A stretch of DNA of 64,000 nt from Malacoraja senta (lineage: Eukaryota), in NCBI GenBank assembly GCA_038087875.1, contig CM075996.1, positions 5,272,001 to 5,336,000 of the forward strand, read 5' to 3'. A model generated the notes under the pieces. That model saw only the letters and a program-made list of their open reading frames with translations, did no database searches and was not told where the DNA came from. How positions within the stretch are numbered: position 1 is the stretch's first letter; each line of letters starts with the position of its first letter. Of the stretch, positions 10,012-53,430 are shown in pieces. The position numbers and the translations under genes are program-made.

Positions 10012-10211
10012 NNNNNNNNNNNNNNNNNNNNNNNNNNNNNNNNNNNNNNNNNNNNNNNNNNNNNNNNNNNNNNNNNNNNNNNNNNNNNNNNNNNNNNNNN
10101 NNNNNNNNNNNNNNNNNNNNNNNNNNNNNNNNNNNNNNNNNNNNNNNNNNNNNNNNNNNNNNNNNNNNNNNNNNNNNNNNNNNNNNNNNNNNNNNNNNNN
10201 NNNNNNNNNNN
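10012..10211. other. Assembly gap (200 N)
   Basis: Run of N. Confidence 1.
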
Positions 10212-23613: not shown

Positions 23614-24291
23614 CACCTCCTCCAGAGATACTGCCTGACCCACTAAGTTACTCCAGCACTTTGTACTATATGTACAATTCCAGATCTGCCTTACAGCCGG
23701 GTTTGATCATGACCATGGAAGCTGTCTGTACAGAGTTTGCATGTTCTCCCTGTGATCGTGTGGATTTTCTCTTGGTACTCCGGTTTCATCCCATATCCCA
23801 CAGAGACGTGCAGGTTTGTAGGTTAATTGGCTTCTGTAAATTGCACCTAGGATAAGGGTACGTGTGATTGTAGGTCAGTGTGGACTCAGTGGGCCAAAGG
23901 GCCTGATTCCATGCTGAATCTTTTAATATAACTAAACTAATCTGCAGTTCCTTGTGTCTATAAACCTATAAGGAATGGTGAAAATAAAACCAGCTCCCTA
24001 AACAGTGTAAGAAGGAACTGCAGATGCTGGAGTAACTCAGTGGGACAGGTGGAATCTCTGGAGAGAAGGAATGGGTGACGTTTCTGGTCGAGACCTTTCT
24101 TCAGACTGATTGTAGTAGTGGGGAGAAAATTGGAAAGTAGCGGTGGGAAAAAGCCTAGTCTGAAGACGGGTCTCGACCCAAAATGTCACCCATTCCTTCT
24201 CACCAGAGATGCTGCCTGATCCGCTGGGTGACTCCAGCATTTTGTGTCTAACTCCCTAGACAACACTGTTGATCCATGTCCTTGTTTTAAG

Positions 24292-24507
24292 GATGACCGC
24301 TACTGGACAAGACGCAAGAAGAACAACCTGGCGGCGAAGCGGTCTCGGGACGCACGGAGGCTGAAGGAGAACCAGATCACGGTGCGGGCTGCCTTCCTGG
24401 AGAAGGAGAACTCGGCCCTGAGGCTGGAGGTGGCCGAGCTGCGCAAGGAGGTGGGACGCTACAAGAACATCATCTCCAAGTACGAAGCCAAATACGGAAC
24501 CTTGTAA
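24292..24507 (+). CDS. TEF: TEF last coding exon, basic region plus leucine zipper
   Basis: Acceptor ttttaAG at 24290-24291, phase 0. [71 protein letters not shown]. Adjacency to TOB2 also supports TEF. Confidence 0.96.
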
Positions 24508-29091: not shown

Positions 29092-30501
29092 ATATATCTA
29101 TCTTGTATATGAAACCTCTGTTCTGGCACCGTCCCTGCTTCTGCGTGAATCGGTTATATAAACAGAGCTTTTTTTAATCAGGGACATTATGGTATATGCT
29201 TTCGTTTTCTGCCTTTTCAGTTATTTGTTGTTTGCTCTTTGATTTGTTAACCTTCCGAGGTCAGTAGTGAGCATTGGAAGTAGGCTTAAAATATTTACAT
29301 TTTCCAGGTACTTCCAGTCCAATCTTCCTGGATCTCAGGGTCGCTGGTGACACTCCCAGATCTGGAGCCGATCGATGTGTGCCCGCTTCAATGCTGAATC
29401 TCTAAACGCACCAGCACAGGTTTTAATGTAGTTTAATCTGTCTCGGTAAAGATCTTCGATTCACGTTGGCTGCTGATTCATCTGATCAGTCGGGGAAACC
29501 ATAGCTGGCATCTGCAAGCCCGGCTTAAAATCGGAACAAAAGCCAACAACTCTGAAAGGAGTATTCAGTCCAATCTTGTCCATCCCTCCAAAGCCAAATC
29601 CGAGGCTGAAGTTGAGTTGAAAGATGCAGAGTGGAAACAGGCCTTTTGATCCACGCTGACTATCGATCAAAGAAACGGGCAAAGTGCTGGAGTAACTCAG
29701 CGTGTCAGGCAGCATCTCTAGAGGGTGGTCTGATCAGGGTCAGTGACATTTGTTGTAGAGAAGATTGGATATCGGAATAAGGAGGACACAGGGACCATTG
29801 TGTAAATGGCGTCAAACTATGGCAACGGGTGCAAGGATTTCACTTGCAGTGCATGCGTGACAATAAAGAACCATTGAATAATGGTTCCTAATCCAACTGG
29901 GAATACGTCATTGTGCATGAGGATACTGAGGTGACCAAACACAAAACACACAGATAGACACAAAATGCTGGACCCACTCAGTGGGTCAGGCAGCATCTCT
30001 GGAGAAAATGGATTGGAGATGTTTCGGGTCAGGACCTTTCTGTCTGATTAGAGTCATAGAGTGATACAGTGTGAAAACAGGCCCTTCGGCCCAACTTGCC
30101 CACACCGGCCATTTGGTCCATATCCCTCCAAACCTGTCCTATCCACGTACCTGTCTAACTGTTTCTTAAACGTGAGGATAGTCCCTGCCTCAACTACCTC
30201 GTCTGCCAGCTTGTTCCAGATGCCCACCACCCTTTGTGTGAAGGGATTGTAGTAGGGGGAGCATGGAAAAAAAACTGGAAACGAAAGGAGGCAAAATGAA
30301 TGATGGTCGGCAACAGATAACCGTAGACAAGGGGGTTCCCTGATAGACAGATTGTTGGTCAATGTAGAGATAGAAAGAGGTGTGAGCCCGAGAGATACAT
30401 AGTTGCAAATTGTTTGCAGACTTTTAGTGGAGAAAGGTGGGGGGTGGGGGGGGGAGTTTGTTGAAGTTACCTAGAATTGGAGAATTCAATGTTTATACCA
30501 G

Positions 30502-30953
30502 GGTAGACAAAAGTGCTGGAGAAACTCAGCGGGTGAGGCAGCATCTATGGAGCGAAGGAAATAGGCAACGTTTCCGGCCGAAACCCTTCTTCAGACTGGT
30601 GCAGGGTGGGGGTGGGGGGGGAAGGAGAAAGGAGGAGGGAGGAGGGAGGAGGAGGAGCCAGAGGGCTGAGGGAGAGCTGGGAAGGGGAGGAGACAGCAAG
30701 GGCTACTGGAAATTGGAGAAGTCAATGTTTATGCTGCTAGGGTGCAGACTGCCCAAGCGGAATATGAGGTGCTGCTCCTCCAATTTCCGGTGGTGCTCAC
30801 TCTGGCCATGGAGGAGGCCCAGGACAGAAAGGTCGGATTTGGAATGGGAGGGGGAGTTGAAGTGCTGAGCCACGGGGAGATCAGGTTGGTTAATGCGGAC
30901 CGAGCGGAGGTGTTCGGCGAAACGATCGCCAAGCCTACGCTTGGTCTCACCGA
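30502..30953 (-). mobile_element. Young Penelope-like element 3' fragment nested in an older PLE (about 30240-31330)
   Basis: IGETKRRLGDRFAEHLRSVRINQPDLPVAQHFNSPSH..RKLEEQHLIFRLGSL; hammerhead motif 30564-30597; flanked by atgtt(t/c)atacc. Confidence 0.88.
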
Positions 30954-33732
30954 TGTTCATACCGCTGGGTTGGAAGCTATCCAAGTGGAATATGAGGTGC
31001 TGTTCCCTCCAGTTTGCGCGTGGCCTCACTCTGGCAATGGAGGTGGCCCAGGACAGAAAAGTCAGTGTTGGAATGGGAACGGGAAATGAAGTGGTTAGCA
31101 GCATCCCGTAGGCCTTGACTGACCGAGCGCAAGCGTTCGGTGAAAAAGTCGCCGAGCCTACGCTTGGTCTTATGGATGTACTGCAGTTTCACATCAGGAA
31201 CAGCAGATGCAGTCGATGAAGTTAGCGGAGGTACACATGTCTTACCTGGAAGGACTGCTGGGGGTCCCTGGATGGAGGTGAGAGAGGAGGAATAGGGACA
31301 GGTGTCACATGTCTTGCAGTTGCAGGGAAAGTACCTGCAAAGTTCCTGTGTTTTATTACAAAATGTGCAGGTTCTCCCAGTGAATTGAATTCTCCAGGTT
31401 CTCCCAGTGAGTGTTGGTTCAGAATTTCCCTCAAAGCTGCAGTAGATTTTTTTTTTCCTCTATTGTGGGTGAGATGGTTGGTGGCAGGAAGTTCCAGATG
31501 ACCAGCCAGATGAGGCAACCCCGAGGTAAAAGAGAAAGTGCTGGAGTAACTCAGCGGGTCAAGCAGCATCTCTGGAGGACATGGATAAATGATGGTAGGT
31601 ATTCCAAGTAGCAGTGGAAAGGAGATACAAGGAACTGCAGATGCTGGTTTAATATAAAAAAAGAGAGAAAAAACCTGGAGTGACCATGCTACTCAAAGCA
31701 GCTCTTACCACTGAGTTATTCCAGCACTTTGTGTCTTTAATCCCTGGAAACAAGATGAAGAGGAACTTCTTTAGTCAGAGTGTGGTGAATCTGCGGAATT
31801 CTTTGCACAGATGGAGGCCAAGTCGTCAGGTGGTTTTAAAGCTGAAATTGGCAGATACTTGATTAGTAAGGGGGTCAAAGTTTATGTGGAGAAGGCAGGA
31901 GAATGGGAGGAAAAGGTAGATCAGCCATGATTGACTGGCGGAGTAGTCTCGATGGGCCGAATGGACTAATTCTGCTCCTCTGACTTACGAACCAGTCCAA
32001 CTGACACTTTGATTGGGGGGTTATCCATGCTATTGGGTAAAAGTGGGCACTGAGACGGAGTAGTAGGTCGTGAGGTAGAGTCCTGCCACTGCCATTGACT
32101 TGTTTAGAGATGCAAGGCGACACAGGCCCTTGGGCCCATCGTTTCCGTGCCAACTAGCGATTTACCCGTACACTAGCACTATTCTATACACTCGGGACAA
32201 TTTACAATTTTAGCGAAGCCAATTAACCTACAAACCTGCATGTCTTTGGAGTGTGGGAGAAAACCGGAGCACCCGGAGAAAACCCACGCGGTCACTGGGA
32301 GAACGTACAAACTCCGTACAGTCAGCACCCGTAGTCAGGATCGAACCCAGGTCTCTGGCGCTGTAAGGCAGCAACTCTACCACTATGCCACCATGCCATT
32401 ATTGGTCCTGTGGACAAATCTTCCTCCTTCCAGCTCCCCTCCCCTGTCTCCCGCCACCAGTGGCTCAAAGATGCCAGCTATCCATTGCTTAAAGTAGGCA
32501 CGAGAGGCACAAAACCCAGCCTTTTTAGCGCTAACGGACAGAGAAAGGAGCTGAGCGGGCCTGAGAGATTGGGGGAGGCAGGGGGGCTTTCCAGGGATAA
32601 GGTGACCCGTGGGGATACGAGATTCCCAGCAGTTGCACAGCAGAGTCTGAAGATGAAGGTGAGGTTGCAATGGCGTCCAGCGATGCAGTCTCTACTTCGG
32701 GATGTGAGATCCCAGAGTATTGAGGGACCAGCTGCTGAGCTTAGGTTAAATTGCCCTGTTGGCTGGTGGTGAAATTTCCATGCAGTTCCTGGCCGTCCCA
32801 AGGTGGATTTTATAAAGAGTAGGGTCCACAAGGGAGAACCAGAAATGTTTTATAAAACCACCTGAATCACCCCTGGTGCACAATGTGACTATTTTAAGCC
32901 CTGTGATTTCTAATACAGTATCTGTATACAATATATATTCTCTCTGTAGCTAATGTGCAAAGGTTTTTAAAAGTCTATTTTTGATTGTTTGTTCCTTAGA
33001 GAACAATAAATGCTGTAAAATCCCCAATGTGTATCACCTGTCGCTTTTTTTTAATACACAAAGGTGTAAAAATAACACTCGCTCGTTGGCGGAGATGCCA
33101 GAGCTGGAATCTGGAGCAAAATTAATCTGATCTCAAATCACCGAGTGATGCAGCGTGGAAACAGGCCCTTCGGCCCAACTTGTCCACACCGGCCAACATG
33201 TCCCAGCTACACTAGTCCCACCTGCCCACGTTTGGTCCATATCCCTCCAAATCTGCCCTATCCATGTACCTGTCTAATGCTTCTTAAATGTTCAGATAGT
33301 CCCTGCCTCAACTACCTCCTCTGGCAGCTCGTTCCATACACTCACCACTCTTTGTGTGAAAAGGTTATCTCTCAGATTCCTATTAAATCTTTTCTCCTTT
33401 CACCTATAACCTATGTCCTCTGGTCCTCGACTCCACTACTCAGGGCAAGAGACTCTATTAGAGGTTCTCGGCAGCTCAGGCACATCTGTGGAAAGAAATG
33501 CAAGGTCAATGTTTCTGGTCCAGTCCTTTATCTGGATTGGATCAGTCCCGACATGGAAACTTTGCCTGTCCATTTCCTTCCACGGATGCTGCCCGACCTG
33601 CTGAGTTCTTCCAGCTGTACTCCTTTATAAAACTTGTTTGTCGGTACCGTAATAAAACAGAAAATGCTGGAAACACTCAACAGGTCAGGCAGCCTCTGCG
33701 GAAGGAGATACGGCTAATGTTCCACCAGACCT

Positions 33733-37939: not shown

Positions 37940-38245
37940 TAGTTCATCAATGGAGGGAAGGTTGCAGCCAATAACCTTCTCTGCTGATCGGACGATTCGC
38001 TGCAGCCTCCAGGTGTCGTGCTTGGTGGCTGAGCCAAACCAGACCATGATGGAGAAGGTGAGAACAGAGTCTACGATGGCCGTGTAGAATTGGACCATCA
38101 TTGCCTGTGGCACATTGTGCTTCCCCAGCTGCCACAGGAAGTACATCCTCTGTTGTGCCTTTTTGACTGTGGAGTCGATGGTCGCCCCCCACTTTAGGTC
38201 CTTGGAGATGATGGCTCCAGGAACTTAAAAGACTCCACAGTGGAA
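37940..38245 (-). mobile_element. Rex1/Babar-type LINE ORF fragment
   Basis: MYFLWQL..MMVQFYTAIVDSVLTFSIMVWFGSATKHDTWRLQRIVRSAEKVIGCNLPSI. Confidence 0.85.
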
Positions 38246-39604
38246 ACAAGGAACTGCAGATACTGGCTCATAATAAGAATGACTCAAAGTGTTGGAGGAG
38301 TAACTCAACGGGCCAGGTAGCATCTCTGGAGAACATGAAGGATGATCCGAGGAAGGGTCCTGACCCAAAATGTCAACTATCCGTGTTCTCCAGAGGTGCT
38401 GCCTGACCCGCTGAGTTACTCCAGCACATTGTGTCTTTTTTTTTTAAACCAGAATGCTGCTTGGATCAGAGGGTAGACACAAAATGCTGGAGTAACTCAG
38501 CGGGACAGGCAGCATCTCTGGAGAGAAGGAATGGGTGGACGTTTCGGGTCGAGACCTTTCTTCAGATGAGAGGGTATTGGCTGTAAGACAACATGGGACA
38601 TACATGGACGGGAAAGAGTCGTGGGCCTGCAGCTCGGAAACAGGCCCTTCAGCCCAACATGTCCGTACTGAACAAGATGGCCCATCCACGTCAGTTTGGA
38701 GGGATATGCACCACACGTGCACGGGCTGGTGGGACTAGTGTAGATGAGACAAGTTGGCCGGCATGGGCAAGTTGGGACGATGGGCCTGTTTCCGTGCTGT
38801 ACGACTCCATGAAATAGGACTAGCTTAGACGGGGCATCTTGCTCAGCATGAACAAGTTGGGCCGAAGGGCCTGTTTCCGTGCTGTGTGACTCTATGACTA
38901 AATCCTGGACGTGGAGAGTGGGGCGGCACGGTGGCGCAATGGTAGAGTTGCGAAGGGCCGGAGACCCGGGTTCGATCCCGACCACGGGCGCTGTCTGCAC
39001 GGAGTTTGCACGTTCTCCCCGTGACCTGCGTGGGTTTTTCTCCAAGACCTTCACGCGCTCCAAAGAGCTTGATCGGCTTGGTATAAATGTAAAATTGTCC
39101 CTAGTGTGTGTAGGATAGTGGCTGGCACGGACTCGGTGGGCCGAAGGGCCTGTTTCCGCGCGGTATCTCTAAACTAAAACTGCTGTGTCGTTTGCCACAT
39201 CTCTTGGCGGGGTAACAGATCCGCAGAGGCCGGCCTCACAGATTGCAGGCGGCAGCTCAGTGCGACGTGTCATGATCACAGTCCTTGCTGCAGGGCTGAC
39301 CTACTTTGCTCCACAAGCTGCTGGCTTCAGCTTCTGTGCCGCCAACTCCGGGAACACGAGGGCACCATTCAGTCCGTCAAACCCCACTCTCCATTCACCC
39401 GGTTGTATCCAGTTCAATCCCACTGACTTGGTCCTTGAAGTGCCAGCCTAATAATGACCAAGCTTGAATTGAGGGGAGGCCAGCAGAGGAGTGGAGGAGG
39501 TAGAGGAGGGGGGGGGGGGGGAGGGCAGAGGTGGCAGAGGAAAGAGGGGGCAGACTGGGCAAGAGGTTCAGTAAATGAAGAGAGAGGGAGAGGAGAGATA
39601 ACTT

Positions 39605-40075
39605 GAGCGTCCAGGAACGGAAAAGACGACAGAAAGTAGTAAACGTTGCCCAGTCCATCATCGGCTCTGACCTCCCTTCCGTCGAGGGGATCTATCGCAG
39701 TCGCTGCCTCAAAAAGGCTGGCAGCATCATCAAGGACCCACACCATCCGGGCCACACACTCATCTCTCCGCTACCTTCAGGTAAAAGGTACAGGAGCCTG
39801 AAGACTGCAACGACCAGGTTCAGGAATAGCTACTTCCCCACAGCCATCAGGCTATTAAACACAACTCAAACAAAAATCTGAACATTAATAGCCCATTATC
39901 TGTTATTTGCACTTTATCAGTTTATTTATTCATGTGTGTATATATTTATAGAATGGTATATGGACACACTGATCTGTTTTGTAGTCAATGCCTACTATGT
40001 TCTGTTGTGCTGAAGCAAAGCAAGAATTTCATTGTCCTATCAGGGACACATGACAATAAACTCACTTGAATCTTG
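39605..40075 (+). mobile_element. Rex1/Babar-type LINE 3' end
   Basis: QKVVNVAQSIIGSDLPSVEGIYRSRCLKKAGSIIKDPHHPGHTLISPLPSGKRYRSLKTATTRFRNSYFPTAIRLLN, then tail gacaataaactcacttga. Confidence 0.88.
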
Positions 40076-40169
40076 ATAAATAAAGAAGAGGTGGGTTGAA
40101 GTGATAGGGGCAAGGTTGGGGGACAGAGAAATGAAGAGAGGGGGTAGAATGAAGAGGTAAGGAGAGAGG

Positions 40170-40354
40170 GTAGACAAAAATGCTGGAGAAACTCAGCGGG
40201 TGCAGCAGCATCTATGGAGCGAAGGAAATAGGCAACGTTTCGGGCCGAAACGTTGCCTATTTCCTTCGCTCCATAGATGCTGCTGCACCTGCTGAGTTTC
40301 TCCAGCATTTTTGTCTACCTTCGATTTTCCAGCATCTGCAGTTCCTTCTTAAAC
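40170..40354. mobile_element. Palindromic PLE-derived insertion (two inverted ends fused at the hammerhead)
   Basis: Arms meet at ggcaacgtttcgggccgaaacgttgcc; 15-bp direct repeat aggtaaggagagagg at 40155-40169 and 40355-40369. Confidence 0.85.
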
Positions 40355-41054
40355 AGGTAAGGAGAGAGGAAGGGGAGGGTGGATGGGGGAGGAGATGGGA
40401 AGATTGTGGAGGTCAGACAGAGACGGTCAAGGGCGCGACGGTAGAGTTGCTGCCTCACAGCGCCAGAGACCCAGGTTCGATCCTGACTTCGGCCGCTGCC
40501 TGTACGGAACTGTACTGCTCTGTATTTTTGTTTACAACACTCTGTTGTGCTGAAGCAAAGCAAGAATTCCATTGTCCTATGTGGGACACACGACAATAAA
40601 CTCACTTGACTTGACTTGACGAGTTTGTACGTTTTCCCCGCGACCGCGTTGGTTTTCCCCGGGCGCTCCGGTTTCCTCCCACGTTCCAAAGGCGGAAGGT
40701 TAATCGACTTCGGTAAAGATTGTGTGTGTGTGTGGGATAGTGTTAGTGTTAGTGTACGGGGAGGGGGGGGGGGGGGACTTGGTGGGCCGAAGGGCCTGTT
40801 TCCACGCTGCATCTCTGAAACTAAAGGAAAGGGGAGAGGGGCGGAGGGTGCAGAATGGGTCAGCCAATGTTGGGAGAGAGGGAGAGTAAAGGGGGGGAAA
40901 GACGATGCCGGAGAGGAGGAGGAAGGAGAGCAGGGTTTGCCAACGCAAGACAGCACCACCGGCCTGCAGCCTATCACTGATGGGGAGGCTGTGAATGGAG
41001 GAGGCAGGGAGCGTTGTATTAATAGATTCAGCTTTCACTGCAGTCACAAAGCTG

Positions 41055-41057
<3 letters not shown>

Positions 41058-41117
<60 letters not shown>

Positions 41118-41122
41118 CGTGC

Positions 41123-41152
<30 letters not shown>
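41058..41152. repeat. (TG)n microsatellite
   Basis: Direct reading. Confidence 0.98.
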
Positions 41153-41153
<1 letters not shown>

Positions 41154-41978
41154 GGGAGAGCCCTCAGCCTTCTGTGCTGGAGTCATTCAAATTCTTCGCC
41201 ATCGCACCATCTAGCTCAGCTGCCTTTCCTCTCTCTTGTCTTGTTCAACAGGATAGAAGATGGGCTTACACTGTTCGTAAGTGATAGGGAGCAGAATTGG
41301 GCCATTCGGCCCGTCAAGTCGACTCTGCCATTCATCGTGGCTGATCTATCTTTCCCTCCGAACCCCATTCTCCTCCCTTCTCCCCCCCCCCCCCCTCCAC
41401 CTGGGTTCAAGAATCTATCTATCTCTGCCTTAAAACTATCCAATGTCTTGGCCTCCACATCCTTCTGTGGCAAAGAATTCCACAGATTCACCATCCATAA
41501 TGTACCCTCGTTCCAAAGCCGATTGCTCTTCTGCAGGATGCATTTCCACAGGTATGAGTTGCCTTATAGCTCTTAGCTTTGTAGATCTATCAGAGCTCTT
41601 AGGGCTAAAGGAATCAAGGGATATGGGGAAAAGGCAGGAACAGGGTACTAATTCTGGATGATCGGCCATGATCATATTGAATGGCGGTGCTGGCTCGAAG
41701 GGCCGAATGGCCTACTCCTGCACCTATTGTCTATGTTTACCTTCATGTACCCGATGAAGGGGGCTGGATCTCGCACGCAGCTTGCTTGACCAAATTGCGG
41801 AGAATTGTGGACGCAGCCCACAAACCAACCTGCCTTCACTTACACCTCACGCTGCCTCGGCAAGGCCAGCAGCATAATCAAAGACTAGTTCCGTCTTGTC
41901 TCCTCTCCAGTCGGGCAAGAGGTATAGAAGTGTGAAAACGCACACCTCCAGATTCAGGGACAGTTTATTCCTGGCTGT

Positions 41979-42069
41979 ACACAAAAATGCTGGAGAAACT
42001 CAGCGGGTGCAGCAGCATCTATGGAGCGAAGGAAATAGGCAACGTTTCGGGCCGAAACCCTTCTTCAGA
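41979..42069 (-). mobile_element. About 91-bp PLE 3' end with intact hammerhead core, inserted in a Rex1/Babar fragment
   Basis: 9-bp direct repeat cctggctgt (41970-41978, 42070-42078). Confidence 0.85.
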
Positions 42070-42374
42070 CCTGGCTGTTATGGGACAACTGAACCATCCC
42101 ACCACAACCAGAGAGCAATGCTGAACTACTATCTACCTCATTGGAGACCCTCGTACTCTCTTTGATCTTGCACTAAATCTTCATCTTGCACTAAATGTTA
42201 TTCCTTTTGTCACATCTCTGCACAATCGGCTTGATTGTAATCACATATCATCTTTCCGCTGACTGGTTTCGCACGGAACTTAAACTTCACGGAACTTCAC
42301 TGTACCTCGGTACATGTGACAATGAACTCGATCTAACAGGTAAACTCAGCCCTGACCCGACACAACGTTCACAC

Positions 42375-42683
42375 ACGCACTCTGTGATTGACGGACTGTT
42401 CCCAGGGACACATTCAGAGACTGACATCGAGTGCTGCTGGAAGGTCATCAACTCGGTGAAAGACGCTCTTTGGTCTGCCCGAGCGTTGTTGACCTCCCAG
42501 CGGAGTGAGATGTCCATCAGGGAATGTTGCCGACTGGCCCGCTGCGGATTGCAGGAGTACGTGCTGAGAGACGCACTGAAGCTCGGTGCAGGCAACGGCC
42601 AGGCTAGACCAGACTAAGGTCCTTCCGCTGCTGGACATGGGGGGCAGGGTGAGGTGGAGACGCCCCTCAAAAATGAGGGAAGG
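42375..42683 (+). mobile_element. Tx1-like LINE ORF2 C-terminus and start of 3' UTR
   Basis: SVIDGLFPGTHSETDIECCWKVINSVKDALWSARALL..ECCRLARCGLQEYVLRDALKLG; clade assignment from recall of Tx1-type C-termini. Confidence 0.65.
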
Positions 42684-43258
42684 TAGTATAATAACAGGAA
42701 AAACATTAATTCTAAAATTTTGGAAAGGCCCTACAATCAAAATGTGGATTATAGAAATGACGGAGACCTTAAACGTGGAAAGAATCAGATTTTCCCTGTT
42801 GGACAAACAGGAATTATTCGTTGGAACATGGTCTCCCTTTATTGATTATTTAAAGGGTCAGAATGGTTCAGCACAGGAACCTGACTAATGCTCGGGCTAA
42901 AGAATGGATGAAATGTTATACTCTGAAATGTACGAATATATCTCGAATGAAGTTTTTTATTTTAATACATTTTCCATTCTTCTTTAATCATCATTTTCTT
43001 TTTTTTTAGTTTTGTTTTTTTTGTTTTTTGTTTTTTGTTTTTTTTGTTTTCTCTTTTCTCTTTTTCTTCTCACTCTTTTCTTTCTTTACTTCATCTATCT
43101 TTTTAGTTCTATCTAGTTTTAAAAAAAAGGCAAAAGGTATTGGAGACAATGTAATAATAATTGATAATATTATCAATTTAAAAATGTAAGACTGTAATGA
43201 TGTTAATAGGTTGTGTACTTATCTCCAATAAAAAATATTTTCAAAAAAAAAACAAAAA
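42684..43258 (+). mobile_element. 5'-truncated L1-clade LINE with poly(A) tail and TSD
   Basis: KTLILKFWKGPTIKMWIIEMTETLNVERIRFSLLDKQELFVGTWSPFIDYL; AATAAA and A-tail; direct repeat aaaatgagggaagg at 42670-42683 and 43259-43272. Confidence 0.85.
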
Positions 43259-43821
43259 AAAATGAGGGAAGGGATTCCACGCCAGTGGGCCACATGAGTG
43301 GCAAGGGTGGGGGGTAAATTTGTGCAATTTGTGTAAACTGTATTGAATGTTTGTATAGCCTCTGAGAATGTCGGATTAATTTTTTGCACGGTTCCTGTGT
43401 TGTAACAGACAGATTACCCCTTCCTTCTCCCCAGAGATGCTGCCTGGCCCAGAGCTACTCCAGCATTTTGTGTCGATCTCCGGTTTAAACCAGCATCTGC
43501 GGTTCCTTCCTACACAAGATTAATCCCCAGTTGGTCGACTTCTCAACTGTTCAACAGGCGACTAACTGCACCATCATGCCATCAACTAGAGCGCAGACCT
43601 GAGCTACTCCGGAGCTCCCGCAAAGACAGCTTCGTCTGCTGGACTGGAGGGTGGCAGCTTCGACCGCCCCCCGGGCCGTTCGCGGAGTTTGAACCGGCCC
43701 GTTCGCGGAGCTCGGATGTGGCCGCTGGACTTACCATCGTCCGGCGGGGTCCCAACATCGGAAGGCTGGATCGCCTCAACGCAGAGGGAGAACAAGGAGG
43801 GAAGAGACAAGGACTTTAAGA

Positions 43822-44289
43822 AGGTACATAAAAATGCTGGTGAAACTCAGCGGGTGCAGCAGCATCTATGGAGCGAAGGAAATAGGCAACGTTTCGGGCC
43901 GAAACCCTTCTTCAGACTGATGGGGGATGGGGAGAAGAAAGGAAAAAGGCGGAGGAGACAGCCCGAGGGCTGGGGGAGGGGAGGAGACAACCAGATGGCT
44001 GATGAAGGGGAGGGGACAGCAAGGGCTAGCAGAATTGGGAGAATTCAATGTTCATGCCCCCAGGATGTAGACTCCCCAAGCGGAATATGAGGTGCATTTC
44101 CTCCAATTTCCGGTGTTGCTCGCTGTGGCCATGGAGGAGACCCAGGACAGAGAGGTCAGATACGGAATGGGAGGGGGAATTGAAGTGCTGAGCCACCGGG
44201 AGATCAGGTTGGTTATTGCGGACCGAGCGGAGGTGTTTGGCGAAACGATCGCCAAGCCTCCGCTTGGTCTCACCGATGTAGATCAGCTG
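43822..44289 (-). mobile_element. Penelope-like element 3' fragment (GIY-YIG endonuclease end, UTR, hammerhead motif 43885-43920)
   Basis: LIYIGETKRRLGDRFAKHLRSVRNNQPDLPVAQHFNSPSH..RKLEEMHLIFRLGSLHPGGMNIEF; 13-bp direct repeat aaggactttaaga at 43809-43821 and 44290-44302. Confidence 0.92.
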
Positions 44290-44816
44290 AAGGACTTTAA
44301 GACTTTTGCCTTCCATCACAGTGAGCAGGTGCCTGGTAGACAGACTCACTGTGGTGGATGTTAAACTGTGTTGAGTGTGTGTTTTGTTATTTTATTCTCA
44401 GTTATGACTGCAAGGTATACAATTCCGTTCAGACTGAAATGTCTGAATGACAATAAAGGATACTTTACTTTACCTCATTGGAGACCCTCAGATTATCTTT
44501 GATCGGACTTGACCTTGCACAAAACGTTATTGCCTTTATCATGCGTGTGTACACTGTGGCTGGCTCGATTGTAATCATGTTTTGTCTGTCAGCTGACTGG
44601 TGCAACAACAGCTTTTCACTCTACCTGGTGTGGGACCTCTGATCACAACACAACTTGTGCGAGTGATATCTACAGAGTGATAACTGATAACTACCCTCTC
44701 ATTGTGTGACTTGGCAGTAACACCTCAACCTTGAATCACCTCTACTCTGAAGATATTTCACCTTGAACATCAGAAGCTTTAACTGTGATTGCAGTTAACC
44801 CATATTGTTACGAGTT

Positions 44817-45178
44817 AAGGTAGACACAAGTGCTGGAGAAACTCAGCGGAGCTCGGATGTGGCCGCTGGACTTACCATCGCCTGGTGGGGTCCCAACATC
44901 GGAAGGCTGGATCGCCTCAACGCAGAGGGAGAACAAGGAGGGAAGAATCAAGGACTTCAAGAAGGTACACAAAAATGCTGGAGAAACTCAGCGGGTGAGG
45001 CAGCATCTATGGAGCGAAGGAAATAGGTAACGTTTCGGGTCGAAACCCTTCTTCAGACTTTTAAACCCCGAAACGTTGCCTATTTCCTTCGCCCCATAGA
45101 CGCTGCCCCACCCGCCGAGCCTCTCCAGCACCCCTGTCCACCCTCGATTCTCCAGCACCTGCAGTTCCTTCCTAAACA
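44817..45178. mobile_element. Composite PLE-derived insertion with inverted arms, one arm T>C hypermutated
   Basis: PLE stub 44817-44849; GC-rich repeat piece 44846-44962; PLE arm 44963-45058; inverted arm 45067-45178. Confidence 0.8.
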
Positions 45179-46564
45179 GTAGACTTTTTAAAAATTGTTT
45201 CAGTCATTTCGGCCAGACATAAACCATTTTACGAGTGAAGTATAAGCAAGTTAGTTTTAGGTGTCAGAAAAAGTCAATGATTCCACAAGTTAATTTTTTT
45301 AAGTTAAATGTTGAGCTCCATCATTAATACCGATTTAAACACCACCGAGCTAGAGGAAAACATTAAACCTGTTCTTTCTTGCTTGCAGGAGGGCGTGCAT
45401 TTGAAAGTGTTGTTACCTGTTGAAGTGTGTACGACCGCTAGTCAGCTGGCAGCTGGCAGCTGCCCAGCCTAAGAGCATGAGTAGAAGTCAACTATTCCCC
45501 TCTTGGAGTCAGAGTGATACAGTGTGAAAACAGGCCCTTCGGCCCAACTTGCCCACACCAGTCAACATGTCCCAGCTACACTCGTCCCACCTGCCAGCAT
45601 TTGGCCCATATCCCTCCAAACCCATCCTATCCATGTATCTGTCTGTCTCTTAAAATGTTGGGATAGTCCCCGTGTCAACTACCTCCTCTGGCCGCTTATT
45701 CCATACATCCACCACCCTGTGTGAAAAAGTTACCCCTCGGATTCCTATTAAATCTTTTCCCTGGTAGGGGTTCCTATTAAATCTTCTGATAGGGAACTTC
45801 TAACCGCTGTGAGTGCATAGATCAAAGCAGAGTGCCACTTCTCCACAAAGCACAGTAGAGAGGGTGACACAGCGGTAGAGTTGCTGCCTCACAGCGCCAG
45901 AGACCCGGGTTCCATCTTGACTACAGGTGCTGTCTGTACGGAGTCTGTACCTTCTCCCCGTGACCTGTGTGGGTTTGCTCAGAAATCTTCAGTTTCCTCC
46001 CAAATTCCAAAGGCGTACAGGTTTGTAGGTTAATTGGGGAGGTATAAATGTAAAACAGTCGTGCGTGCGTGTGTAAGGAATAGACAATAGGCAATAGACA
46101 ACAGGTGCAGGAGTAGGCCCTTCGAGCCAGCACCGCCATTCAATGTGATCATGGCTGATCATCCCCAATCAGTACCCCATTCCTGCCTTCTCCCCACATC
46201 CCCCGACTCCGCTATCTTTAAGAGCCCAATCTATCTCTCTCTTGAAAGCATCCAGAGAACCTGCCTCCACCGCCCTCTGAGGCAGAGAATTCACAGACTC
46301 GCCACTCTCTGGGAGAAAAGGTGTTTCCTCATCTCCGTTCTAAATGGCTTACTCCTTATTCTTAAACTAGTGGTATGTGTTAACGTGCGCGGGGATCGCG
46401 GGTCGGTGCGGAGTCAGTGGGCCACTCTGCGTCTCTAAACTAACCACGGAGCATAATTGCACTGGTGTGAAACACCCAGTGCTCAGGAGGAGGGTTGATT
46501 GCTGTAATGCTCGATTTAACTGTTAAAGAAGACACTACACACAGCCAGCTCCAATTTTCATGCT

Positions 46565-46570
46565 TTTAAT
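46565..46570 (-). terminator. Candidate TOB2 polyadenylation signal (ATTAAA)
   Basis: Minus-strand GTATTAAAAGCA at the end of a long AU-rich non-repetitive tract, followed by GU/U-rich TGTGTGTAGTGTCTTCTTT; repeats resume shortly beyond. Confidence 0.55.
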
Positions 46571-49500
46571 ACAAACTTAAAAAAGATTCGGAACATTATA
46601 AACTATACAGCTCTGACCTCACCTACAACAAATCTGCAAAAACATCTTAGCATCAAGCAAGTATTGCACAATGTTCCAAAGTAGAAAATTGGGATGTTTC
46701 TCAGTCTACAATAAAAGGAATTATTTGCATCCACTTTCCTTAACAGAAAATACCCATTCCTTTCAAAAAAGTAAAATGTACATAATTTGAAAAAATCCTG
46801 CCATCGCATTTACTCTTTCTGAAGCATACAATGTCAATATCTGTTTTCAATTTTTTTTTGAAAAAATAATTTGTTGCATATGAAATCTGAAATGAAATTA
46901 CAATAATGTACATTAGAAATATATACTCTTAACCTTTACAAACATAGTAAATTATTCAAGCAAAGGAAACCAAAGAAACTTAAGATTCCGATCAGTTAGT
47001 GCCAAATTTTTTAAAAATAAAAAATAAAACCAAGCAGTGTTTTTTTTTTAAATGTTCAAGTAAAGAAAGGCTAACGTCTGGATAATACATCACATCACCT
47101 CAATGAAGGAACACTTGGGGTGGGAGGGGGGGGGGGGGAGGGAAGGAAGAAAAAGTCCTCAAAAGGCAATCATTTTTAACAATGACCAGTCTCCCTTGCA
47201 TCCAAGAACCCTTAACAGGGTCACCTTGGAATCAACTGGAAATTGAAACCAATTGTACCACCTCACAACTAGATCCTTTCTTAGATTTGTTCCTATCCCT
47301 TAACTGAGAGGCAGAACATAGGCATGAACAGCAAGGCTGCCCAAGAACCCAGCAAGGTGGTTCAACTGAGCGTCACGAGTAGATCAGGTCGTTGGTACTC
47401 TAAGTGACCCGCTCTTGGGCAAGCTATACTCCCTCACCAATTTGGAGGCTGGAAGTCTCAGATATGTGGGGATTACTATTCAAGGAGGTCACAAGTCTTG
47501 TAGGGTCTGTGTCACAGTGAGGGTTGGGGTGGAGAAGAGAGAGAGAGTCAGGTGTCAAAGGCAAGGCTGCTCAAGTTGCTATTTATGCCGTTGGGCATCA
47601 AGCCCCATGGTCAAATATGTCCTCTGTTGATGGTTCAGTGGTTGTTCTGTTTTGTCCTGCTGTTACCATGACCAAGTTGTATTATCATATGAAATAAAAA
47701 AACATGTACCAGCAGTTTAGGGCCACATGCTCTACGAGGCAGACAGCCAAAGGATGCCATTTCCAGTCTTTCCCCACCGATATTGAACTGGCAATCTCAA
47801 CAAACCTCCCCCGTTCAGCAGGATGCCAAACTCCAAACTTTGGAAGAGCACAGTGAATGCAAAACGATCACTGGACACAAACAGGGCGAGCAGGGAATTG
47901 TTTCTACTTTGTTAGTCAAAAGCTTGTGGTGTCCCTAGAATGTGCCCAGAACAAAATTCACAATGGTCTTTTACCCAACACCATTCTCTCCGTATTCCTT
48001 CCTACACCATCAAAGTGCATATTTCCTGTCACGCTTTTAGTTTTAAATTAAAAAATACTAAATCAACTAAATTCCAGCAAGCCAGAGAAAGCTTTAAAAA
48101 ATGCAGATTTTGAATTTGTGTTTAAATGCAGCCCCCGTTTGTGAGCGAACAATTTGGTGGCCATCTTGAATTTCAGAGACACTAGCATTGTAAAGTATAG
48201 GCAGTTGTGGCATTTGCATTTGAGGTGCTGCATGCTACACACAATCAGATTAACAGGACGAGGTCGCCATTTTGATATGGAACAGAGAAAGAGCATGGGG
48301 GGAGGGGGGGGGGAGGGGGTAAGAAAGAAAGAGGGGCTTCAACACTTCTAAAATGATCGTTTCAGCAATCTTAGTCTTATTGTAGTGTGTTCGGTCTGTT
48401 GGGATAACAGCACAAGACAACATCAGCTCAAAAAGTCATCGATTCCAGCATCACATACTGGATGGATCCCGGGTTGTGACGATTGGATGAGGTTGGGGAG
48501 TTTAGTCGCAGTGTGGACGCACTGAACAATAAATGACTAGGCCAAAAGAGGGTTGCGGTGATCTGGATTGCCGAGACAGTGGACAAGCAGATTATACAGC
48601 AGTTGCAACTCACTCGTTATAGATTAGTTCCCTCACTCTTGCTCAGAACTATAACTGGTTAAGGCTTTAACAACTTCAGGACTCCCACAACAATTCAAGA
48701 TTACAAATACTAAAACAGATAGCTGTATTCGTCTGGTCCATGTGTATTACCTTGATCATAACAACATTCGCCTCAAGTGGCTGTGTTGACATTTTTGAGG
48801 CCTCAAGCCACAGCGCAGGGAACCGGAGGCTGAACGGCAACATTAATCTAGTAGTTTGGAAACATTTCAATGCTAGAACCATATACAAATATAGGACTTT
48901 TTCTTTTAAACTGAAAATCAGAGAGAGAGGAAGAGAGAGAGAGGAGGACAGAAGGTATAATAAGTTTTCACCCTTTAATCCGGGTCACTTCCCCTCCCCG
49001 CCCCCCCCCCCACCCCCCCAAAAGAAAACTGCGGTTAGTGATCTGTACCAACATGGCTGTACTGGGTCCAATGTTCAAAGTAACAGCACACCAAGGAGAA
49101 AACAAAACCAAGTTGGACAACCAGTAAATCTGTCACCCAGGGACAAACCTTCAGATGCAATTTTTAGTGGCCAGTACAAGTATCAAAGCAAACTTCAGAT
49201 GGCCATCAGCTACTTACTATATTGTGGGAAGTGTCGTAGGTAGTTTATAAATACTATGGTACTTTCGTGAAATATAGTGTTCCTCGTCTGAAACATGTAC
49301 GTGTGCAGATTGTAAACGTCAGGTGAGCTTTCTTTCAAAGCTAGTTTGAACCCAGCCTTTTCTCACTTTAGCTGCACTGTTTGGGTGGGGGGACGCAAAG
49401 GGAAACCAGCACAATTATCACACTAAAGCAGGGGAAATAAATCAGAGGAGACACTTGCATTATCTAATAGGCTGCTGTGGAGCAATGTTGGATGAGGCCT

Positions 49501-52453: not shown

Positions 52454-53368
52454 TTAGTTTGCCAAGACAACAGGCTGAAATGGCTGGTTAGGATACTGCA
52501 TGGTATTCAAGTTGAAGTCGAGTCCTTCCACAAACGGGGCTTTCTCACCCAGGTTGTTGTTATTGTAGATTGGTGGCACCTCGAAGGCATTGGGGAAGGG
52601 CGCCGGCCCGGAGGACGACTGGTTCTCATTCCCGAAGTACAAGCTCAGTGAACCCGGGTAGACAAACTCCTTGGCATTGGGGGAGAGGGAGGATGGTGGG
52701 ATCTGGTTGCTGCCGAGGACCAGCGAGTGCATGGATGTGGACAGACCCTTCTGCTTAATCAGGCCGTTGGTCGGAGAGCGGGCCATTCGGCGGCCTCCAG
52801 TTTTCATCTTGGTGGACCCAAATTTGGTGGCAGCGAAGGCTGCAGTGGTGAACGTGATTGGCTGAGTAGACCTGGGGATGAAAGTGGGGCTCACCGAATT
52901 CCCAAAGGATGGAGAAGGGGAATTAGACAAAGAGTTGCCCTGGTCAGTGATAGGTGTGAAAACTTGGGCCTCTGGGTTAAAGCTGCTCTTTATTTCTTTG
53001 TCCAACTCCGCACTCTCATTGTCGTCCATGTAGAGGACCTTCACAGCCCCCTTCTCACCAATCTGATAGGACACCTCGAATGGATCAATCCAAAGGCTCA
53101 ATTCTTGGGGAACATTGGCTCGAATATCATCTATATCCAACCCACTCCTCCTTGCCGCCTGCTCGATGATAGGGTCCACAGTCTCTCCGATATGGACACA
53201 CCTGTAGCCAGATCCTTTCAGGGGGTTTTCTAGGTACCAGTGGCCCTCATATTTCTGTTTCAGCAGCCGCTCCAGCTCCTCCCCAAAGAGGTCTGCACGT
53301 CGTCGGGGTAATTTGTTGTACAGGTAGGAGATTATGAAATTTAAAGCCACTTTGATCTCCAAATGCAT
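52454..53368 (-). CDS. TOB2: Transducer of ERBB2, 2 (BTG/Tob family; CAF1- and PABP-binding deadenylation adaptor), 304 aa, intronless CDS
   Basis: N-terminal BTG domain [36 protein letters not shown] (RRRADLF is TOB2-type); box [17 protein letters not shown]; two PAM2 motifs [12 protein letters not shown] and [13 protein letters not shown]-terminus FQPVVLAN. Confidence 0.97.
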
Positions 53369-53430
53369 GCTTGATATGGTGACTGGGGGGGAAGGCAGTG
53401 TAGAAAGAGCTTCAAATCTTCACACAATTC

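What the first reader, a model, noticed from the sequence alone, without database searches (positions are those of the whole stretch)
45067..45178. Retroelement arm with only T>C (minus-strand A>G) changes: possible ADAR hyper-edited RNA fixed in the genome
Seen: against the reverse complement of the sibling at 30501-30573, this arm reads gaaacgttgcctatttccttcgcCccatagaCgctgccCcacccgcCgagCCtctccagcacCCCtgtcCaccc, which is 10 differences, all T>C. The continuation against 40317-40355 adds 3-4 more (accCtcgattCtccagcaCctgcagttccttcCtaaaca). I see no other substitution type in about 110 nt. Only two changes create CpGs, so ancestral CpG retention does not explain it, and APOBEC or CpG decay runs the other way. 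The arm lies next to its own inverted copy (44963-45039), so a transcript would form a long hairpin, the established ADAR substrate; inosine is copied as G by reverse transcriptase. Inference: an A-to-I hyper-edited RNA was retrotransposed or used as repair template by Penelope machinery, giving heritable RNA editing. Caveats: the partner arm shows no such changes, and several edited sites have a 5' G, which ADAR disfavours.
Basis: partly seen in the sequence, partly recalled or inferred. Interest (0 to 1): 0.8.

Follow-up and report, generated by a model that had tools for sequence, protein, structure and literature searches.

The report
RNA edits fixed in vertebrate DNA
A 112-base piece of a jumping gene carries 14 changes, all of one kind and on one strand, in the DNA of two samples; they are likely edits made on RNA by the enzyme ADAR and then copied back into the chromosome, so a normally temporary RNA change would have become inherited.

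Summary
Read-derived contigs of two samples carry the C alleles joined to unique flank. No other of 617 unbiased family copies has more than 5 T>C. The arm is a Penelope-like pLTR end. The signature recurs in this genome. Across 16 hand-picked arms, editing by 5' neighbour runs U 0.71, A 0.56, C 0.44, G 0.19, the ADAR order. A sister locus is a 1.96-kb poly(A)-tailed retrocopy with its source still present; 40 of its 69 substitutions read A>G on the RNA strand, 26 of them in inverted repeats. A DNA-transposon family has multiplied a similarly edited cargo. It has 0 of 17 edits, three edits lie outside the stem, and an 8-nt duplication flanks the edited arm alone. Best reading: ADAR-edited RNA from elsewhere was reverse-transcribed and inserted here (0.72). 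No RNA evidence was available, and the enzyme that inserted it is not identified.

The parts
45067..45178 (+). Edited arm: sense-orientation end of a Penelope-like pLTR plus its 'tail', starting at the centre of the family's palindromic junction
45093..45172 (-). Hyper-edited tract: 14 A>G on the minus strand (T>C on plus); the first 26 nt of the arm are unchanged
   Evidence: alleles seen in two samples
45055..45062 (+). Left copy of an 8-nt AT-rich direct repeat (likely target-site duplication); overlaps the last 5 nt of the partner arm
   Evidence: 2 of 3000 shuffled flank pairs reach 8 nt; 7 of 142 tail-complete copies have 8 nt or more
45181..45188 (+). Right copy of the direct repeat, followed by a T-run/A-run junction
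44961..45059 (-). Unedited partner pLTR arm, head-to-head with the edited arm; forms a long stem with it if transcribed
   Evidence: 0 of 17 A sites edited, one G>A
44846..45059 (+). Local duplicate (94%) of 43705-43918: part of an unrelated host repeat plus the partner arm, so the partner has its own origin
44817..44849 (-). Short unedited pLTR fragment in front of the duplicate
30703..31188 (-). GIY-YIG-like ORF end running into a sibling pLTR; ties the family to Penelope-like elements
   Evidence: ORF; feature score 0.96 to clusters with PF01541 in 13-22% of members; Pfam scan itself negative
52457..53419 (-). Tob/BTG-family gene; the locus lies about 7 kb downstream on the same strand as the A>G changes (context only)
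   Evidence: PF07742, PF07145

Best explanation
The arm is likely a DNA copy of an RNA that ADAR had hyper-edited: the 14 one-strand changes and the flanking 8-nt repeat are shown, while the RNA editing, the reverse transcription and the insertion as a separate piece are inferred. Steps: (1) a transcript holding this pLTR arm in antisense orientation paired with a sense copy, as head-to-head Penelope copies and dense repeats allow (inferred); (2) ADAR deaminated about 36% of its adenosines (inferred from the signature); (3) a retroelement reverse transcriptase read inosine as G and inserted the piece at an AT-rich nick at the end of an older arm, duplicating 8 nt (duplication shown, enzyme unknown: LINE-type or Penelope); (4) it passed through the germline (alleles in two samples). 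The neighbouring arm was probably not the editing partner.
For: Purity and density. Presence in read-derived contigs of two samples. 5' neighbour order U 15/21, A 38/68, C 21/48, G 15/80 over 16 arms with forced columns removed, Fisher p 2e-7, against a flat background of 2.8-5.2%; hADAR1 is U>A>C>G (PMC3113232). Outside the search patterns, same-type changes are enriched for A>G (16/205, 2.2x, p 0.003; 4/39, 2.9x, p 0.047) and for one T>C set (20/296, 1.8x, p 0.009), but not for C>T (3/115) or G>A (3/91) controls. Sister locus G000:C12:26619485-26621442 copies G000:C4405:109120-107189 and ends in a 41-nt T run absent from the source. 40 of its 69 substitutions are A>G on the poly(A) strand, 36 of 38 polarisable ones are derived in the copy, and none falls in a 726-nt spacer. 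A DNA-transposon family carries cargo with 19 A>G against 1 G>A relative to an unedited relative. Adenosine-deaminase-domain genes are in the genome. Antisense templates have been proposed for Penelope (PMC3846280).
Against: No RNA data: editing of these adenosines was never observed. No parent or source locus was found for this arm. The arm ends exactly at the family's tail end, where Penelope reverse transcription starts on SENSE RNA (PMC11167929), which would predict the opposite polarity unless the template was antisense or a parent copy already carried the changes. There is no poly(A) remnant here. The locus alone is too small for a neighbour test (2/9 against 11/19). The 16 arms were picked by eye and share consensus sites, so the p value is too optimistic; 3' G enrichment is not significant (p 0.39). 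Two T>C pattern sets showed no enrichment outside the pattern (4/154, 0/28). At the 3-of-6 threshold in the shared core, raw hit counts do not separate the types (T>C 1, A>G 9, C>T 6, G>A 8). No region-matched control exists for the 22-hit search. In the sister, 14 of 40 changes lie outside any detected duplex, and it has no clear target-site duplication. Insertion exactly head-to-head against another arm is a coincidence under this model.
Confidence: 0.72

Rival explanations
1. ADAR edited RNA, but the changes entered an arm already in place, by conversion with cDNA of an edited transcript (for example read-through from the Tob/BTG gene on the minus strand).
For: The minus strand is the transcribed strand of the nearest gene. 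The tract has a boundary: the first 26 nt of the arm are unchanged. One contig of relative E joins the orthologous flank to a pLTR-like tail and stops at 45142, as expected if that arm is not densely edited. A DNA-transposon copy (L229) has its own tract of 21 A>G.
Against: The partner arm is unedited (0/17) and three edits lie outside the local stem. The contig of E is single, about 11% diverged, and its letters at the edited sites are not shown. L229's tract sits beside a 1-kb insertion with a duplicated element segment, so it may be an inserted cDNA. The strand match is a 50% coincidence.
Confidence: 0.1
2. ADAR (or another adenine deaminase) acted on the nascent cDNA strand in the RNA:DNA hybrid during ordinary Penelope reverse transcription of sense RNA, giving T>C in sense, in the manner of APOBEC DNA editing.
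For: It fits the arm's geometry (intact tail end, 5' truncation, short duplication) and the unedited partner. ADAR activity on DNA in hybrids is recalled, not read here.
Against: In the sister retrocopy the changes are on the RNA strand and avoid the single-stranded spacer. Both arms of hairpins carry same-strand changes (9+9 G.T against 1 A.C in L090; 8+9 against 2 in L229). 36% conversion on DNA surviving repair would be remarkable.
Confidence: 0.08
3. Polymerase error: a reverse transcriptase inserting G opposite U under low dATP, or a translesion polymerase inserting G opposite T over a short tract.
For: Five of the changes lie in two T runs. 9 of 14 have a 5' A or U on the minus strand, also the polymerase-eta context (recalled).
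Against: It would give T>C on the RNA strand, the opposite of the sister retrocopy. There are no other substitutions or indels in 70 sites. It gives no reason for the concentration in inverted repeats.
Confidence: 0.05
4. GC-biased conversion, an old C-rich subfamily, or the tail of chance.
For: All changes are weak-to-strong, and two sites are family variants.
Against: 0 A>G at 19 A sites (p 0.004 for a strand-blind process). No transversions. No second copy of the haplotype. Chance p 1e-10 to 1e-11 per copy.
Confidence: 0.03
5. Sequencing or polishing artefact at a hairpin.
For: The arm lies in an inverted repeat.
Against: Contigs from two samples carry the alleles joined to unique flank.
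Confidence: 0.01

Closest known systems
ADAR-linked A-to-G hyper-editing in avian retroviruses RAV-1 and ALV (Felder 1994; Hajjar and Linial 1995, as cited in PMC8586724; passages read, originals not seen)
   Same: Clustered one-strand A>G made on RNA and carried on by a reverse-transcribing element.
   Different: Here it is non-viral, germline and fixed in a vertebrate assembly, in Penelope-like arms and host transcripts, and in one case multiplied afterwards by a DNA transposon.
APOBEC 'DNA editing' of LTR retrotransposons (PMC4866542, PMC2873906; passages read)
   Same: A host deaminase leaves dense directional clusters in inherited retroelement copies, found by copy-to-copy comparison.
   Different: That is G>A in sense, made on cDNA of LTR elements. 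Here it is A>G with the ADAR neighbour order, duplex-linked and non-LTR. In the passages seen, those surveys used A-to-G as a filter or control; PMC4866542 has no occurrence of ADAR.
Hyper-edited repeat RNA (PMC4365171; PMC3113232; passages read)
   Same: Density, 5' G depletion, inverted-repeat substrate.
   Different: Those are RNA-only changes; here they stand in DNA.
Penelope/Poseidon pLTR with tail and inverted head-to-head copies (PMC11167929 main text; PMC3846280 passages and Discussion)
   Same: pLTR plus optional tail, palindromic inverted junction, short duplications, GIY-YIG ORF end upstream in longer copies.
   Different: No editing marks are mentioned in the parts I read. This copy is a 112-nt non-coding fragment.

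Membership tests
ADAR hyper-editing product | Dense A>G on one strand only | tested here: met
   13-14 T>C at 36 T sites, 0 at 70 other sites
ADAR hyper-editing product | 5' neighbour order U>A>C>G | tested here: met
   Pooled 16 hand-picked arms 0.71/0.56/0.44/0.19; this locus alone 1/2, 8/12, 2/5, 2/9, same direction but small
ADAR hyper-editing product | 3' G enrichment | tested here: inconclusive
   34/75 against 55/142, p 0.39; 6/10 at this locus
ADAR hyper-editing product | Edits lie in double-stranded RNA | tested here: inconclusive
   Here 11 of 14 lie in the local stem but the partner is unedited; in the sister 26/126 duplex sites against 14/319 others
ADAR hyper-editing product | A>G strand is the RNA strand | tested here: inconclusive
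   Met for the sister by its poly(A); for this locus only indirect (gene strand)
ADAR hyper-editing product | Inosine or A>G seen in RNA of the source | not testable with these tools
   No RNA run of this organism could be laid
ADAR hyper-editing product | Host encodes adenosine-deaminase-domain genes | tested here: met
   14 PF02137 matches on C1, C2, C21 and two scaffolds; ADAR versus ADAD/ADAT identity not resolved
Penelope-like element pLTR | GIY-YIG ORF end adjoining the repeat in longer copies | tested here: met
   30703-31188; Pfam scan negative, so support is the Atlas lead plus anatomy
Penelope-like element pLTR | Head-to-head inverted copies, optional tail, short target duplications | tested here: met
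Penelope-like element pLTR | Hammerhead ribozyme | tested here: inconclusive
   Core boxes recognised by eye from recall; Rfam gave no hammerhead match in 38000-48000; this arm lacks the first core box
Retro-insertion (this arm) | Target-site duplication | tested here: met
   8 nt exact, 2 of 3000 shuffles
Retro-insertion (this arm) | Poly(A) tail | tested here: not met
   Only a 4-nt T run, part of the duplication
APOBEC-edited retroelement | G>A in the sense strand | tested here: not met
   0 G>A and 0 C>T in the arm

The most novel reading that the evidence does not exclude
In this vertebrate lineage, ADAR hyper-edited RNA is a recurring germline mutagen. Edited repeat transcripts are written back into chromosomes by retroelement enzymes, the hammerhead core of Penelope RNA is a repeated target, and edited pieces are multiplied further, even by DNA transposons. 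The genome therefore holds a fossil record of germline RNA editing and of which RNA strand Penelope copies.
Probability: 0.65. Interest if true: 0.8.

Novelty: new variant of a known kind. Interest (0 to 1): 0.68.

Why it matters
A-to-I editing is treated as transient, and genome surveys of deaminase scars have looked for APOBEC G>A and used A>G as a filter or control. A source-and-copy pair with a poly(A) tail is direct sequence evidence that ADAR marks can be inherited. It makes three questions testable from assemblies alone: how often germline RNA editing becomes mutation, whether ADAR restricts Penelope elements by wrecking their ribozyme core, and whether Penelope uses antisense templates. 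The single arm itself has no evident function.

Tried and rejected
Assembly artefact: rejected. Shared ancestral haplotype: none found. Local hairpin as the substrate: disfavoured. No RNA holder was listed for the stretch, which says nothing on expression. Orthologues: relatives B, C and D hold the flank only from 45243 on, and E from 45142; the state of the edited sites could not be read. Source searches for L064 and L053 found none; L064's hits are independent LINE insertions into the T run of other arms. No paralogue of 44700-44846 was found. Rfam gave only sub-threshold miRNA-hairpin matches. Pfam on the GIY-YIG remnant was negative. Raw hit counts of the four transition types at 3-of-6 did not discriminate. 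Column tallies in the unbiased sample were too small to stand in for a matched control (0/343 A>G, 0/243 G>A, 2/280 T>C). Rows dropped: this locus and duplicates of one event (L063, L066, L070, L071, L073, L080, L105-L108, L111, L116, L121, L123), and one locus was a duplicate. No clear duplication was found around the C12 retrocopy, and only weak (69%) distant partners for its patch at source 374-622. Two of four look-ups of earlier findings returned nothing, and one failed on word format. Carmi 2011 is not held, and one PubMed id from recall was wrong.

Full report
Observation. One site is a variable family position and one a common variant, so 12-14 is the range. Among 617 copies of at least 50 nt in 1.064 Mb taken without regard to the signature (the window, 200 kb around it, and 80 scattered 10-kb stretches), the other 616 have at most 5 T>C, 5 A>G, 8 C>T or 5 G>A, and only one other copy passed a loose purity filter (5 C>T of 8). 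A scan of all repeats in that sample found further pure clusters only in simple repeats. Single contigs from two samples join all 14 C alleles to unique flank; one has an extra A>G at 45127 at low depth. Both runs come from one study and are contigs of unrecorded kind, at genome scale.

What the piece is. The family is the terminal repeat of a Penelope-like element. Longer copies run in from a GIY-YIG-like ORF end (Pfam negative). Copies occur with or without a tail and often head-to-head with a palindromic junction and short duplications, as described for Penelope (PMC3846280, passages and Discussion; PMC11167929, main text). The hammerhead label rests on recalled core boxes; Rfam did not match. 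The edited arm is in sense orientation on plus, so its changes are A>G on the antisense strand. It lies about 7 kb downstream of a Tob/BTG gene on the minus strand and downstream of a PAR-type bZIP exon on plus (the PAR label is recalled).

Local anatomy. The partner arm 44961-45059 belongs to a 214-nt local duplicate of 43705-43918. It has 0 of 17 editable sites changed and differs from the edited arm at two other positions. The minus strand folds into one long stem in which the edits are G.U pairs (14 G.T against 2 A.C), but 45150, 45158 and 45172 lie beyond it. An exact 8-nt repeat at 45055-45062 and 45181-45188 brackets the edited arm alone; 2 of 3000 shuffled flank pairs reach that length. 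So the arm most likely arrived as a separate, already edited piece. One contig of a relative joins the flank to a pLTR-like tail and stops at 45142, which leaves later conversion in place open.

Recurrence. Eight genome-wide patterns with forced changes returned 73 hits (15, 1, 9, 6, 8, 22, 8, 4). Counts alone do not separate the types. Outside the patterns, A>G sets are enriched 2.2x and 2.9x and one T>C set 1.8x; two T>C sets are not (4/154, 0/28), nor are the C>T and G>A controls (duplicates and this locus removed). Individual arms with 6-15 same-type changes, forced sites included, are L053, L058/L090, L091, L092, L096, L098, L100, L101 and L110/L111 (output partly cut). Over 16 arms chosen by eye, with forced columns removed, the edited fraction by 5' neighbour is U 15/21, A 38/68, C 21/48, G 15/80; ordinary substitutions show 5.2, 2.8, 3.8 and 4.0%. 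This is the hADAR1 order (PMC3113232, passages; PMC4365171, passages). Sites recur across copies, so the test is not fully independent. 3' G is not significant. The 22-hit search has no region-matched control.

The decisive sister. G000:C12:26619485-26621442 is a 1.96-kb, 94% copy of G000:C4405:109120-107189 with different flanks on both sides. One end is cut inside a pLTR arm; the other is a 41-nt T run that the source lacks, a poly(A) tail on the minus strand. Of 69 substitutions, 40 are A>G on that strand, against 6 T>C and 8 G>A read on the same strand (p 3e-7 and 3e-6). 36 of 38 that other copies can polarise are derived in the copy. They occupy 26 of 126 sites in inverted repeats and 14 of 319 elsewhere, 12 of the latter in one patch without a good partner, and none lies in a 726-nt spacer. 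Both arms of its hairpin are edited (9 and 9 G.T, 1 A.C). This polarity excludes cDNA deamination and G:U misinsertion for that locus. It rests on the assembly alone; no reads were laid on it.

Amplification. A non-autonomous DNA transposon of about 1.7 kb, with terminal inverted repeats and 6-bp duplications read by eye, has at least 40 copies (40 scored of 3180 candidates; 30 aligned). Its internal palindrome shows 43 G.T against 5 A.C in L205. An unedited relative of its cargo survives at L271: 19 A>G against 1 G>A in 206 nt, and 26 A>G in a further 153 nt. One copy, L229, adds a tract of 21 A>G. A second class of hairpins (L093, L096, L098, L101) has mirror-image sense A>G in both arms, as expected if both arms were copied from one edited sense template.

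Mechanism and odds. Shown: the changes, their strand purity, their presence in two samples, the flanking duplication, and an edited poly(A) retrocopy elsewhere in the genome. Inferred: ADAR as the enzyme, an antisense-containing duplex RNA as the template, and a retroelement reverse transcriptase as the writer. Insertion of a pre-edited piece 0.72; conversion in place by edited cDNA 0.10; deamination of cDNA 0.08; polymerase error 0.05; GC bias or chance 0.03; artefact 0.01. The main unexplained point is that the arm ends exactly at the tail end, where sense-RNA copying starts; an antisense template (proposed in PMC3846280) or a lost edited parent would reconcile this.

Literature and novelty. 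Ten searches listed no paper whose title or abstract opening reports ADAR-edited RNA fixed in germline repeat copies. The library lacks most subscription papers, Carmi 2011 was not held, and no supplements were read. Known analogues are A-to-G hyper-edited avian retroviruses (cited in PMC8586724, passages) and APOBEC G>A scars in LTR elements (PMC4866542 and PMC2873906, passages). Passages of PMC5974252, PMC4598827 and the retrozyme preprint 10.64898/2026.07.22.740005 added nothing. Earlier AI notes of this scan list 33 similar findings in at least 12 other genomes (8 shown); they are unchecked leads, not support, but they make this a further case within the scan, not a first. Verdict: real, more than chance, a new variant of a known kind; interest 0.68.

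Noticed in passing
G000:C12:26619485-26621442 (L249, L259) and G000:C4405:107189-109120 (L250, L261): Poly(A)-tailed retrocopy with 40 A>G on the RNA strand and its unedited source: the best single test case in this genome.
   Followed up: yes
L204-L233; unedited relative L271 (G000:C2:16.26 Mb): Non-autonomous DNA transposon, at least 40 copies, carrying hyper-edited cargo; L229 has a second tract of 21 A>G.
   Followed up: partly
L090-L111: The same adenosines of the hammerhead core are changed to G on several subfamily backgrounds; this would inactivate the ribozyme. No matched control.
   Followed up: partly
L093, L096, L098, L101: Head-to-head hairpins with the same sense A>G changes mirrored in both arms, suggesting both arms come from one edited template.
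   Followed up: partly
L068, L070, L071, L073: Multi-copy composite repeat with an arm whose A>G changes differ between copies.
   Followed up: no
L269-L272: A young LINE with a poly(A) end has inserted independently into the same T run of different pLTR arms.
   Followed up: partly
window 52457-53419 (-) and 24232-24504 (+): Tob/BTG gene and a bZIP exon in convergent arrangement; recalled as the TEF-TOB2 neighbourhood.
   Followed up: no
window 43705-44300 and 44846-45059: A Penelope 3' fragment sits inside another repeat with a 13-nt duplication read by eye; its left part is duplicated 1.1 kb downstream.
   Followed up: partly
L104-L108 (G000:C19:10.31-10.34 Mb): Tandem array of about 5.3-kb units, each holding a pLTR hairpin.
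   Followed up: no
window 10012-10211: 200-N assembly gap, far from the finding.
   Followed up: no
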